Part shown: positions 27,649-28,548 of the stretch, in pieces
Position numbering within the stretch: the first letter of the stretch is position 1
Layout: every line of letters starts with the position of its first letter
From: an uncultured Candidatus Saccharibacteria bacterium
Lineage (GTDB): Bacteria > Patescibacteriota > Minisyncoccia > Phycocordibacterales > GWA1-40-21
DNA: 64,000 nt
Reading direction: 5' to 3'
Assembly: GCA_964513515.1 (NCBI GenBank)
Contig: CAZEMP010000003.1
Coordinates: forward strand, 40,927 to 104,926
The notes under the pieces: generated by a model
Told to the model about the DNA's origin: nothing
Databases searched by the model: none
The model's input: the letters and a program-made list of their open reading frames with translations, nothing else
Program-made: the position numbers and the translations under genes

Positions 27649-28548
27649 ATGTCTAGCAGGCACCTTGCAAGATCAATAGTATTTCAATCCGCTTTTGAGT
27701 GGGATTTCAGAAATTCTTCTAGAGAAGAAGCCTTGTTGTCTTTAGAAAGAAACAATAAAGAATTTGGAGATGGTGATTTTGAAAAGTCTTTTTCTGAAAA
27801 TCTTCTTAAGGGTGTTATAGATAAAAAAACAGATTTAGATAATATTATTGTGAAAGCAGCGCCAGATTGGCCTATAGAGAAGATTTCTATTGCTGATAGA
27901 AATATTTTGCGCATAGGGCTTTATGAGCTTTTGTTCTCTGATAGAAAAGAAGTTCCAGCAAAAGTTGCGATCAATGAAGCTATTGAGCTTGCAAAGGCTT
28001 ATAGCGGAGAAAAAAGTGGCGGTTTTATAAATGGAGTACTGGGTACTATTTACAAAGAGCTTGGAGAGCCTGGTAAAGAAGAAGTTTCTAAAAAACATAG
28101 AGACATTCCATTTGAAAAAATGCCCATAAAACAACTCGCTGGGGCGGTCGTTTATAGCATTGAAGATGGTAATATTTATTTTGCACTCGTCCATGACATT
28201 TTTGGAAAATGGACGCTTTCTAAAGGAAAGATAGAGCCAGGGGAGGATCCAAAAGTTGGAGCAATGAGAGAAATAAAGGAAGAGATGGGTATTGATATAT
28301 CTATCGAAGATGAGCTTTTGAAAAATGAATATGTAGCCAATCATCCGCAAGAGGGTAAGATTAGAAAACAAGTAATATATTTTCTAGCCCGCGCTGAAAG
28401 AGCTGATTTGAAGCTTGGTGATAGCGGAGGACTAGACGACGCAAAATGGTTTAAACTTCAAGAAATTCAAAATCTTAATTTCTATAACGATATATTACCG
28501 ATTATTACAAAAGCGATTACCATAATAAGTAGCAAACAAAATAAATAG
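27649..28548 (+). CDS. nusB: NusB-like antitermination domain fused to C-terminal NUDIX hydrolase domain
   Basis: N-terminal ~145 aa NusB-like ([12 protein letters not shown]...[27 protein letters not shown]); C-terminal Nudix box [23 protein letters not shown]. Confidence 0.7.
   Translation: [299 protein letters not shown]

What the first reader, a model, noticed from the sequence alone, without database searches (positions are those of the whole stretch)
27649..28548. NusB-like domain fused to a NUDIX hydrolase domain
A single 299-aa ORF combines a complete NusB-like N-terminal domain ([27 protein letters not shown]) with a canonical Nudix box ([23 protein letters not shown]). There is no stop codon or frameshift between the two domains. 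NusB is normally a stand-alone protein of about 140 aa. A covalent link to a Nudix pyrophosphohydrolase suggests a coupling between transcription antitermination and nucleotide or RNA-cap hydrolysis (e.g. RppH-like decapping or (p)ppGpp/Ap4A hydrolysis).
Basis: partly seen in the sequence, partly recalled or inferred. Interest (0 to 1): 0.55.

Follow-up and report, generated by a model that had tools for sequence, protein, structure and literature searches.

The report
NusB fused to nucleotide-binding Nudix domain
A group of tiny uncultured bacteria (Paceibacteria) has permanently welded a nucleotide-binding Nudix module onto NusB, their ribosomal-RNA transcription factor; the module's binding pocket is conserved but its catalytic residues often are not, so it more likely senses or grips a nucleotide than destroys one.

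Summary
Window 27649-28548 (+) is one uninterrupted 299-aa ORF. Its N-terminal half is a bona fide NusB (TIGR01951, 124 bits against a cut-off of 88). Its C-terminal half is a Nudix fold with a perfect Nudix box. AlphaFold2 gives two well-folded domains joined by a disordered linker (141-151) with no confident packing.

It is not an artefact. The best 120 hits in each of two searches carry both domains, and about 50 GTDB species of Paceibacteria/Parcubacteria have the fusion. It always sits in the rpmF-nusB-rnc slot, where sister lineages have an ordinary ~140-aa NusB. Every apparent split gene I could check was a scaffold gap or a truncated contig.

The Nudix half is of the Ap4A/ApnA-hydrolase type (Aquifex 3i7u, TM 0.86-0.89), not RppH.

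The family repeatedly loses catalytic glutamates. The full set is present in only 50%, 62% and 17% of three samples, with at least 32 switches on a rough tree. The residues that hold the adenine and the P1 phosphate in Ap4A hydrolases (K192, Y228, K240, Y279) stay 93-100% conserved, even in severely degenerate members.

The conserved role is therefore most likely ligand or RNA 5'-end binding, as in NrtR and CF Im25, with hydrolysis optional. This particular protein keeps all catalytic residues. I found no paper describing the fusion.

The parts
27649..28548 (+). nusB-nudix gene: one 299-aa ORF, including the stop codon
   Evidence: M1, R4, H5 and R8 are invariant in the family alignment A2, which supports this start codon.
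27649..28068 (+). NusB domain, residues 1-140, all-helical
   Evidence: Pfam PF01029 E=3.5e-32. TIGR01951 is above its cut-off. AF2 predicts helices 2-138 with pLDDT around 90. Foldseek matches Aquifex NusB in the NusB-NusE-BoxA complex (3r2c/3r2d) with TM 0.88 and rmsd 1.9 A.
28069..28125 (+). Flexible linker, residues 141-159 ([21 protein letters not shown] region)
   Evidence: AF2 pLDDT is below 50 for residues 141-151 and pTM is 0.50. This region has the highest column entropy in the family.
28126..28539 (+). Nudix-fold domain of the Ap4A/ApnA-hydrolase type, residues 160-297
   Evidence: Pfam PF00293. The closest PDB sequences are Rv2985/MutT1, Aquifex Ap4A hydrolase, CT771, Ndx1 and NUDT2. 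Foldseek gives 3i7u TM 0.86-0.89 and rmsd 2.0-2.3 A.
28225..28293 (+). Nudix box, residues 193-215 ([23 protein letters not shown]), complete in this protein
   Evidence: Read directly from the sequence. E199, R207, E208, E211 and E212 are all present here but are complete in only 60/120, 75/120 and 10/59 relatives.
28222..28485 (+). Span holding the conserved ligand-contact residues K192, Y228, K240 and Y279, plus W188, Y244 and W267 nearby
   Evidence: These align to NUDT2 K42, Y82, K89 and F128, the P1-phosphate and adenine-stacking residues (roles taken from PMC4734340). They are 93-100% conserved even in severely degenerate members.
27268..27528 (+). rpmF (ribosomal protein L32), the conserved upstream neighbour; the true start is probably at 27322
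   Evidence: Pfam PF01783 matches residues 24-73 of the ORF. Synteny holds in most of the 80 loci.
27531..27561 (+). Terminator-like hairpin after rpmF (13-bp stem followed by a U-tract)
   Evidence: region z-score -3.17. It suggests that nusB-nudix has its own promoter in 27562-27648, or is expressed by read-through.
28631..29332 (+). rnc (RNase III), the conserved downstream neighbour
   Evidence: Pfam Ribonucleas_3_3, Ribonuclease_3 and dsrm. It lies immediately downstream of nusB in nearly all fused and unfused loci that extend that far.

Best explanation
This is the organism's housekeeping NusB, the S10/BoxA-binding subunit of the rRNA antitermination complex. A flexible linker of about 20 residues tethers an Ap4A/ApnA-hydrolase-type Nudix domain to its C-terminus. 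What selection preserves in that domain is the purine-nucleotide and phosphate binding pocket, not the hydrolytic machinery. The domain most likely acts as a ligand-binding module. It would bind either a free nucleoside or dinucleoside polyphosphate (Ap4A-like, or an NTP), or the 5'-polyphosphate or Np4-capped end of the nascent pre-rRNA leader that NusB already holds through BoxA. Either way it would couple rRNA transcription and processing to that ligand, much as NrtR and CF Im25 use non-catalytic Nudix folds. In family members with an intact Nudix box, including this one, the bound ligand is probably also hydrolysed. In the many members with a broken box it is only bound. Shown: domain identities, the fold, the orthologous gene position, the lineage-wide obligate fusion, and the conservation pattern. 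Inferred: the identity of the ligand, and any effect on NusB function.
For: (1) Bona fide NusB: it passes the TIGR01951 equivalog cut-off, and its fold matches NusB from the NusB-NusE-BoxA complex. R4 and R8 are conserved, and F16 aligns to E. coli Y18. (2) Orthologous slot: the dnaE<-, rnhB, rpmF, nusB[-nudix], rnc, smc order is shared by about 50 fused and about 28 unfused Patescibacteria loci, with no separate Nudix gene in the unfused ones. The 64-kb window holds no second NusB or Nudix. (3) Obligate fusion: the best 120 hits in each of two searches all carry both Pfam domains, and the Nudix-half search returned 1374 hits at E<=1e-10, with both domains in 114 of the 120 best. There are 59 full-length 50%-identity representatives reaching down to 33% identity. 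The apparent splits are runs of N or truncated contigs. (4) Ap4A-hydrolase type by sequence and by fold. (5) Relaxed catalysis: the set E199/R207/E208/E211/E212 is complete in 60/120, 75/120 and 10/59 relatives, with charge-reversing E208K/R and E212K replacements, and at least 32 switches on an NJ tree. E208 aligns to human E58 and E212 to Ndx1 E50, the positions mutated (E58A, E50Q) in the PDB entries 4ijx and 1vc9 that hold bound ligand. Pfam no longer detects NUDIX in P0201, P0182 and P0166, yet the domain is retained. (6) The binding pocket is kept: K192, Y228, K240 and Y279 (NUDT2 K42, Y82, K89, F128; roles from PMC4734340) are 93-98% conserved in 41 severely degenerate members, and Y279 is invariant in A1. 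(7) The Nudix half is under purifying selection: its dN is similar to that of the NusB half while dS is saturated. (8) Precedents: NrtR has a mix of intact (active) and perturbed (effector-binding) Nudix signatures (PMC2330246). CF Im25 binds Ap4A but does not hydrolyse it, within an RNA-processing factor (PMC2425470).
Against: There are no biochemical data. The query itself has a perfect Nudix box, so for this protein hydrolysis may be the main activity. The conserved aromatic and lysine residues are also partly structural in the Nudix fold, so their conservation does not by itself prove ligand binding. AF2 gives no inter-domain contact, so no allosteric route from the Nudix pocket to the NusB surfaces is visible. 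I could not examine whole genomes, so the claims that this is the only NusB and that there is no other Ap4A hydrolase are untested. The NusB-domain tree does not cleanly resolve a single origin of the fusion (6 changes).
Confidence: 0.5

Rival explanations
1. The Nudix domain is an active RNA 5'-end pyrophosphohydrolase or Np4-decapping enzyme. NusB delivers it to the nascent pre-rRNA leader, where it converts 5'-ppp or Np4 caps to 5'-p and so licenses removal of the leader alongside RNase III.
For: The catalytic set is intact in the query. The domain belongs to the Ap4A-hydrolase type, and a member of that type, human NUDT2, trims PPP-RNA to P-RNA (PMC8616924). Np4 caps exist on bacterial RNA and are removed by the Nudix enzyme RppH (PMC7044304 and PMC8833179). 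The conserved rpmF-nusB-rnc neighbourhood links the gene to rRNA processing. A flexible tether suits reaching a nearby 5' end.
Against: The catalytic glutamates are missing in 38-83% of family samples and were lost many times independently, so catalysis cannot be the reason the fusion persists. RppH models score far below their cut-offs (23.8 against 118), and the BdRppH fold match is weaker than the Ap4A-hydrolase matches.
Confidence: 0.2
2. The degenerate Nudix fold is a protein-protein or RNA scaffold. It would act as an extra subunit-like module of the antitermination complex, comparable to the enzyme-fold protein SuhB in E. coli, with no small-molecule ligand involved.
For: The catalytic residues are dispensable. 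An enzyme-fold protein, the inositol monophosphatase SuhB, is an integral non-catalytic part of the NusB-containing rrnTAC (PMC6614797 and PMC6614801). The domain is kept at full length even where Pfam no longer recognises it.
Against: The residues that are best conserved are exactly those that contact the adenine and the P1 phosphate in Ap4A hydrolases. A pure scaffold would not need them.
Confidence: 0.14
3. A functionally uncoupled fusion. A housekeeping Ap4A/NTP 'house-cleaning' hydrolase became attached to NusB by loss of a stop codon in a compact genome, and simply works as a free enzyme would.
For: Reduced Patescibacteria genomes are gene-dense. AF2 shows two independent domains and a disordered linker.
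Against: The fusion is kept down to 33% identity, with no genuine split forms and no adjacent nusB and nudix gene pair in sister lineages. A house-cleaning enzyme would not tolerate repeated loss of its catalytic glutamates while the domain stays under purifying selection.
Confidence: 0.1
4. An assembly or sequencing artefact has joined two separate genes.
For: None was found. The only apparent splits (L042, L081) coincide with runs of N.
Against: The same architecture recurs in more than a thousand independent protein clusters from NCBI, JGI, ENA and Logan assemblies, and in about 50 GTDB species. A 100%-identical sequence is present in a second, independent assembly.
Confidence: 0.01

Closest known systems
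NusB (TIGR01951 / PF01029), e.g. Aquifex aeolicus NusB in the NusB-NusE-BoxA complex (PDB 3R2C) and Thermotoga maritima NusB (1TZT)
   Same: Residues 1-140 pass the equivalog threshold and have the same all-helical fold (TM 0.84-0.88). The N-terminal Arg motif and the [12 protein letters not shown] helix are present. The gene sits at the same genomic position as the stand-alone nusB of sister lineages.
   Different: It carries an extra C-terminal domain of about 160 residues. Stand-alone NusB ends at about residue 140.
Ap4A/ApnA-hydrolase-type Nudix enzymes: Aquifex aq_158 (3I7U), Thermus Ndx1 (1VC8), Chlamydia CT771 (4ILQ), M. tuberculosis Rv2985/MutT1 (9CXX), human NUDT2 (3U53)
   Same: These are the best sequence and fold matches. 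They share the W-T-x-x-K-G motif before the box, the adenine-stacking Tyr and Tyr/Phe pair, and the P1-phosphate lysines. The query has a complete Nudix box.
   Different: Those are stand-alone enzymes, or in MutT1 are fused to a histidine-phosphatase domain, and their catalytic glutamates are strictly conserved. In the NusB-fused family those glutamates are frequently replaced.
NrtR, the Nudix-related transcriptional regulators (PMC2330246; Nudix domain structure 3GZ8)
   Same: A Nudix domain is fused to a nucleic-acid-binding transcription module. The family mixes intact signatures (active) with perturbed ones (effector-binding only), and ligand-binding residues are retained. 3GZ8 appears among the fold hits.
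   Different: NrtR's partner is a winged-helix DNA-binding domain, its Nudix domain is of the ADP-ribose pyrophosphatase type, and it is N-terminal. Here the partner is the RNA/S10-binding NusB, the Nudix domain is of the Ap4A-hydrolase type, and it is C-terminal. This is an analogy, not membership.
CF Im25 / NUDT21 (PMC2425470)
   Same: It is a Nudix fold lacking two catalytic glutamates that binds Ap4A and ATP without hydrolysing them and works inside an RNA-processing complex.
   Different: It is eukaryotic and acts in mRNA 3'-end processing. Its ligand site and stacking residue differ, and it has no NusB partner.
RppH / NudH and BdRppH, the bacterial RNA 5' pyrophosphohydrolases
   Same: They share the Nudix fold. 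BdRppH (3EES) is a lower-ranked fold hit.
   Different: NCBIfam RppH models score 20-24 bits against cut-offs of 116-118, so this protein is not a member of that family.
RsmB/Sun (a NusB-like N-terminal domain fused to an rRNA m5C methyltransferase)
   Same: It is a precedent for a NusB-fold domain covalently linked to an enzyme domain that acts in rRNA biogenesis.
   Different: RsmB models score 17-55 bits against cut-offs of 269-540. The partner domain is different, and the NusB-like domain of RsmB is a paralogue, whereas here it is the orthologous NusB.

Membership tests
NusB (TIGR01951 / PF01029) | The profile score exceeds the curated threshold | tested here: met
   TIGR01951 scores 124.2 bits against 88.35, and PF01029 scores 112 bits against 23.1.
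NusB (TIGR01951 / PF01029) | An all-helical NusB fold that superposes on solved NusB structures | tested here: met
   AF2 predicts helices 2-138 with pLDDT around 90. Foldseek gives 3r2c/3r2d TM 0.88 and rmsd 1.9 A, and 1tzv TM 0.84.
NusB (TIGR01951 / PF01029) | The gene is the orthologous housekeeping nusB, judged by conserved genomic position | tested here: met
   The rpmF-nusB-rnc synteny is shared by fused and stand-alone loci. The window contains no second NusB. Whole genomes were not examined.
NusB (TIGR01951 / PF01029) | An N-terminal basic RNA-binding motif and an aromatic residue equivalent to E. coli Y18 | tested here: met
   R4 and R8 are invariant or nearly so in the family, and F16 aligns to Y18. 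The E. coli sequence was recalled from memory; positions 18 (Y) and 118 (D) match the known nusB5 and nusB101 alleles.
NusB (TIGR01951 / PF01029) | Binds S10 (NusE) and BoxA RNA, and supports rRNA antitermination | not testable with these tools
   This needs biochemistry or complementation experiments.
Nudix hydrolase superfamily (PF00293) | The profile score exceeds the threshold, and the alpha/beta/alpha Nudix fold is present | tested here: met
   PF00293 scores 57 bits against 21.1. AF2 predicts strands and helices over residues 160-297, and there are many Nudix fold hits.
Nudix hydrolase superfamily (PF00293) | The Nudix box GX5EX7REUXEEXGU is intact | tested here: met
   It is met in the query, residues 193-215. 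Across the fusion family it is not conserved: the set is complete in 60/120, 75/120 and 10/59 relatives.
Nudix hydrolase superfamily (PF00293) | Mg2+-dependent pyrophosphohydrolase activity | not testable with these tools
   This needs an enzyme assay.
Ap4A/ApnA-hydrolase-type Nudix (NUDT2 / Aquifex aq_158 / Ndx1 type) | The closest relatives by sequence and by structure are characterised ApnA hydrolases | tested here: met
   phmmer against the PDB gives 9cxx 2.7e-10, 3i7u 1.1e-8, 4ilq, 1vc8 and 3u53. Foldseek gives 3i7u TM 0.86-0.89.
Ap4A/ApnA-hydrolase-type Nudix (NUDT2 / Aquifex aq_158 / Ndx1 type) | An adenine-stacking Tyr downstream of the box with a second Tyr/Phe, plus P1-phosphate lysines | tested here: met
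   Y228, Y279, K192 and K240 align to NUDT2 Y82, F128, K42 and K89. The roles come from PMC4734340 and PMC2425470. The Tyr lies 13 residues after the box here, against 17 in NUDT2, because the loop is shorter.
Ap4A/ApnA-hydrolase-type Nudix (NUDT2 / Aquifex aq_158 / Ndx1 type) | Hydrolyses Ap4A to Ap6A | not testable with these tools
   This needs an enzyme assay.
RppH (RNA 5' pyrophosphohydrolase; NCBIfam PRK00714 models) | The profile score exceeds the curated threshold | tested here: not met
   NF001936 scores 23.8 bits against 118, and NF001938 scores 20.4 against 116. The matches cover only the Nudix-box region.
NrtR-type Nudix-effector transcription regulators | A Nudix-like effector domain fused to a winged-helix DNA-binding domain | tested here: not met
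   There is no wHTH domain; the partner is NusB. The resemblance is in logic only: a relaxed signature with the ligand site retained.
RsmB/Sun | A NusB-like domain followed by an m5C methyltransferase domain, with the profile above threshold | tested here: not met
   NF011494 scores 55.5 bits against 319, and TIGR00563 scores 39.7 against 269. There is no methyltransferase domain.

The most novel reading that the evidence does not exclude
NusB in Paceibacteria is a ligand-gated antitermination factor. Its Nudix pseudo-enzyme domain would sense a dinucleoside or nucleoside polyphosphate alarmone (Ap4A-like), or capture the Np4- or ppp-capped 5' end of the nascent pre-rRNA. That would make rRNA transcription and processing directly responsive to stress or nucleotide status in bacteria with minimal regulatory repertoires. 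It would be the first known direct protein target linking ApnA signalling to the rRNA antitermination complex.
Probability: 0.2. Interest if true: 0.8.

Novelty: new variant of a known kind. Interest (0 to 1): 0.5.

Why it matters
NusB is one of the most conserved and architecturally invariant transcription factors in bacteria. A whole radiation of Patescibacteria has replaced it with a two-domain version, and public annotation simply calls that version "NusB". If the appended Ap4A-hydrolase-type pocket binds ApnA, NTPs or RNA 5' ends, it would provide a direct and experimentally tractable link between the rRNA antitermination and processing machinery and either dinucleoside-polyphosphate alarmones or RNA 5'-end chemistry. 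The physiological targets of those alarmones have been debated for decades. The family is also a natural series of intact and broken Nudix boxes on one scaffold. That makes it well suited to separating binding from catalysis, as was done for NrtR.

Tried and rejected
(1) Sequencing or assembly artefact: rejected, because the fusion recurs in more than 1000 clusters and about 50 species.

(2) "Rosetta-stone" split genes: I looked for a separate Nudix ORF between nusB and rnc in 28 stand-alone-NusB loci and found none. I then chased Nudix-only proteins. P0218 is a truncated call on a 992-bp contig whose nearest relative is a fusion. The P0427/L081 split and the L042 "frameshift" are runs of N.

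(3) dN/dS per domain: synonymous sites are saturated, so only dN could be compared.

(4) Single origin of the fusion: the NJ tree of the 140-aa NusB domain puts 42 fused genes in one cluster but scatters 6 others among unfused genes. This is unresolved.

(5) RppH membership: rejected on NCBIfam thresholds.

(6) Inter-domain packing: AF2 gives no confident arrangement. No multimer or RNA modelling was available.

(7) Longer variants: P0252 (577 aa, weak CSD match) and P0125 (weak Rho_N match) score below the Pfam cut-offs and were not pursued.

(8) Literature: searches for NusB+Nudix+fusion, NusB+Patescibacteria and Nudix+Parcubacteria found nothing describing the architecture.

(9) The AFDB fold library was unavailable, so I could not list UniProt entries with the same architecture.
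Full report
OBSERVATION. Window 27649-28548 (+) is a single 299-aa ORF that starts at ATG and has no internal stop. Pfam finds NusB (PF01029, residues 7-136, E=3.5e-32) and NUDIX (PF00293, residues 185-281, E=2.7e-15), both well above their gathering scores. The NCBIfam equivalog model TIGR01951 (nusB) scores 124 bits against a cut-off of 88. Residues 193-215, [23 protein letters not shown], fit GX5EX7REUXEEXGU at every specified position.

NOT AN ARTEFACT. A search of 5.8 billion proteins returned 120 best hits (71-100% identity, 276-305 aa). 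All of them carry both Pfam domains, and they come from NCBI, JGI, ENA and Logan assemblies. They include a 292-aa version from a second, independent assembly that is 100% identical over 98% of the query. A profile search gave another 120 two-domain proteins at 55-63% identity. A search with the Nudix half alone found 1374 proteins at E<=1e-10, and 114 of the best 120 have both domains. At the 50%-identity level there are 59 full-length representatives, reaching down to 33% identity. The Nudix-only hits I could check are truncated gene calls on short contigs or products of scaffold gaps. P0218 is on a 992-bp contig and its nearest relative is a 294-aa fusion. The P0427/L081 "split" and the L042 "frameshift" are runs of N.

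WHERE AND IN WHOM. A scan of one genome per GTDB species found about 50 species with the full-length fusion. All are Patescibacteria of the Paceibacteria/Parcubacteria group, with record titles naming Kaiser-, Zambryski-, Nomura-, Ryan-, Niyogi- and Komeilibacteria and Paceibacterota. Sister lineages (Yanofsky-, Azam-, Wildermuth-, Staskawicz- and Moranbacteria) have a NusB that matches only query residues 1-~150. The gene order thrS<-, dnaE<-, rnhB, rpmF, nusB[-nudix], rnc..., smc, <-rnr is shared by both groups. The unfused loci have no Nudix ORF between nusB and rnc. The window shows the same order and contains no second NusB or Nudix. The fused gene is therefore the orthologous, presumably sole, housekeeping nusB, extended at its 3' end. 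A rough NusB-domain tree groups 42 fused genes together but leaves 6 scattered, so a single origin is likely but unproven.

STRUCTURE. AlphaFold2 with an 87-sequence alignment gives mean pLDDT 88. It predicts an all-helical domain (helices 2-138) and an alpha/beta/alpha domain (residues 160-297). These are separated by a linker with pLDDT below 50 (residues 141-151), and pTM is only 0.50. The model is two independently folded domains on a flexible tether, with no confident packing. By Foldseek the NusB half superposes on Aquifex NusB from the NusB-NusE-BoxA complex (3r2c/3r2d, TM 0.88, rmsd 1.9 A). The Nudix half superposes best on Aquifex Ap4A hydrolase (3i7u, TM 0.86-0.89, rmsd 2.0-2.3 A). 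Next come M. tuberculosis Rv2985 (a diadenosine polyphosphatase) and M. smegmatis MutT1, Thermus Ndx1 (an Ap6A hydrolase), Chlamydia CT771, and the human and C. elegans Ap4A hydrolases. BdRppH and the NrtR Nudix domain rank lower. Sequence searches against the PDB give the same order. RppH models in NCBIfam score about 20-24 bits against cut-offs of about 117. The Nudix half is an Ap4A/ApnA-hydrolase-type domain, not an RppH.

THE KEY FINDING: CATALYSIS IS RELAXED AND THE POCKET IS KEPT. I aligned three independent samples of the family and asked whether the catalytic set E199/R207/E208/E211/E212 is complete. It is complete in 60 of 120 close relatives (>=71% identity), in 75 of 120 at 55-63% identity, and in only 10 of 59 wide representatives. 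The replacements are not conservative: E208 becomes K, R, G, V or A, E212 becomes K, and E211 becomes D, N or K. On an NJ tree built without the box columns, parsimony needs at least 32 switches among 142 sequences, and intact and broken boxes are interleaved even within the query's own clade. E208 aligns to human NUDT2 E58 and E212 to Thermus Ndx1 E50. Those are the positions mutated (E58A, E50Q) in the PDB entries 4ijx and 1vc9, which hold bound ligand. In the most divergent members (P0201, P0182, P0166) Pfam no longer detects NUDIX at all, although the C-terminal ~150 residues are retained and NusB still scores above 100 bits.

The domain is nevertheless not decaying. Its dN against close relatives (0.12-0.37) is comparable to that of the NusB half (0.10-0.35), while synonymous sites are saturated. 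A specific set of residues is conserved more strongly than the box itself: D183, F185, W188, T189, K192, Y228, K240, Y244, W267 and Y279, with Y279 invariant in A1. Alignment to human NUDT2 maps K192, Y228, K240 and Y279 onto K42, Y82, K89 and F128. I recalled the NUDT2 sequence from memory, and its numbering agrees with PMC4734340. Those are the residues that hold the P1 phosphate and sandwich the adenine in Ap4A hydrolases (PMC4734340; PMC2425470). In the 41 members that keep two or fewer of the four box glutamates, these positions are still 93-98% conserved as a residue class.

INTERPRETATION. The pattern of a conserved ligand pocket, dispensable catalytic residues, and fusion to a nucleic-acid-binding transcription module is the one described for NrtR. 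There, members with intact signatures hydrolyse ADP-ribose, while most members have perturbed signatures and use the domain as an effector sensor (PMC2330246). It also recalls CF Im25, a Nudix fold lacking two glutamates that binds Ap4A without hydrolysing it, inside an RNA-processing factor (PMC2425470). My best explanation (confidence about 0.5) is that this is the housekeeping NusB carrying a tethered module that binds a purine nucleotide or polyphosphate. The ligand could be a free ApnA or NTP-like molecule. It could equally be the 5'-ppp or Np4-capped end of the pre-rRNA leader that NusB already holds through BoxA. Proteins with an intact box, including this one, probably also hydrolyse the ligand. 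The conserved rpmF-nusB-rnc neighbourhood fits an rRNA transcription and maturation role, since RNase III cleaves the leader-trailer helix whose formation the antitermination complex assists (PMC10250234). The domain identities, fold, orthology, obligate fusion and conservation pattern are shown. The ligand and its effect on NusB are inferred.

RIVALS. NUDT2 trims PPP-RNA (PMC8616924), and Np4 caps exist in bacteria (PMC7044304 and PMC8833179). It cannot, however, explain why the fusion persists where the box is broken (confidence 0.2). (b) A pure scaffold role, comparable to the enzyme-fold protein SuhB in the E. coli rrnTAC (PMC6614797 and PMC6614801), fits the loss of catalysis but not the retention of the pocket (0.14). 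(c) An uncoupled house-cleaning enzyme is contradicted by the obligate fusion and by catalytic loss under purifying selection (0.1). (d) An artefact is refuted (0.01).

NOVELTY. Both domains are known, and the architecture is already present in public databases, where NCBI and JGI name it only as NusB or, occasionally, MutT. Three full-text searches found no paper describing it. I rate it a new variant of a known kind: a lineage-wide NusB with a Nudix effector/hydrolase module. Interest is moderate (0.5). The fusion alone is a database-visible domain combination. The relaxed-catalysis, conserved-pocket pattern turns it into a concrete, testable hypothesis about ligand control or 5'-end capture at the rRNA antitermination complex.

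LIMITS. There is no biochemistry. Whole genomes were not examined. The trees are NJ only. The E. coli NusB and human NUDT2 sequences were recalled from memory, although checked against known allele and paper numbering. AF2 cannot assess RNA or partner-induced domain arrangements. The AFDB library was unavailable.

Noticed in passing
L047 (CAZWMQ010000003.1) 5983-6905; also 2582 and 3845 on the minus strand: In-frame TGA codons fall exactly on the conserved Trp columns W74, W188 and W267 of the NusB-Nudix gene, and dnaE is interrupted by two further in-frame TGA codons. GC is 28.6%. This Paceibacteria-like genome, labelled 'Saccharibacteria' in its record, appears to read UGA as Trp (code-4-like).
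   Followed up: partly
window 28549-28630: The 82-nt spacer between nusB-nudix and rnc folds into a long imperfect hairpin that reaches the rnc start codon (dG -19.9 kcal/mol, z -2.35). It could be an RNase III autoregulatory substrate like the E. coli rnc leader. It is probably not conserved, because many related loci have overlapping or very short nusB-rnc junctions.
   Followed up: partly
window 27268-27561: The rpmF ORF as listed starts 18 codons upstream of the likely true start at 27322 (MVNRM...; the Pfam match begins at residue 24). It is followed by a strong terminator-like hairpin at 27531-27561, so nusB-nudix may have its own promoter.
   Followed up: partly
P0264 and P0212 (proteins): These are 142-aa stand-alone Nudix proteins. 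Their N-terminal half is MutT-like (G-x-W-x-x-P-G-G before the box), but their C-terminal half is very similar to the NusB-fused type (NEYVAS...GGLDDARWF...LNFYED). They may be recombinant or chimeric paralogues.
   Followed up: no
P0252 (577 aa) and P0125 (358 aa): Some family members carry extra regions. P0252 has an N-terminal extension of about 315 aa with a sub-threshold cold-shock-domain match. P0125 has a C-terminal tail with a sub-threshold Rho_N match.
   Followed up: partly
window 29411-29764 and 29797-30102: Two small ORFs (117 and 101 aa) between rnc and smc have no Pfam match. The first has a counterpart only in the closest locus, L001.
   Followed up: partly
window 59811-62288 (-): This is an 825-aa ClpB/ClpC-like protein in which Pfam recognises only the second AAA module (AAA_2 and ClpB_D2-small). 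The region where the first AAA domain should be gives only a weak nSTAND1 hit.
   Followed up: no
window 40982-44532 (+): A phosphoketolase (XFP) lies adjacent to an acetate kinase, which is a compact fermentative module. Nearby are a PIF1-like helicase with an HTH_40 tail (36864-38534) and a 634-aa DKNYY-repeat protein (38559-40463).
   Followed up: no
window 8646-9217: The only tRNA in the 64-kb window (tRNA-Thr, anticodon TGT, minus strand, 8646-8721) lies next to a small HNH endonuclease ORF (8810-9217).
   Followed up: no
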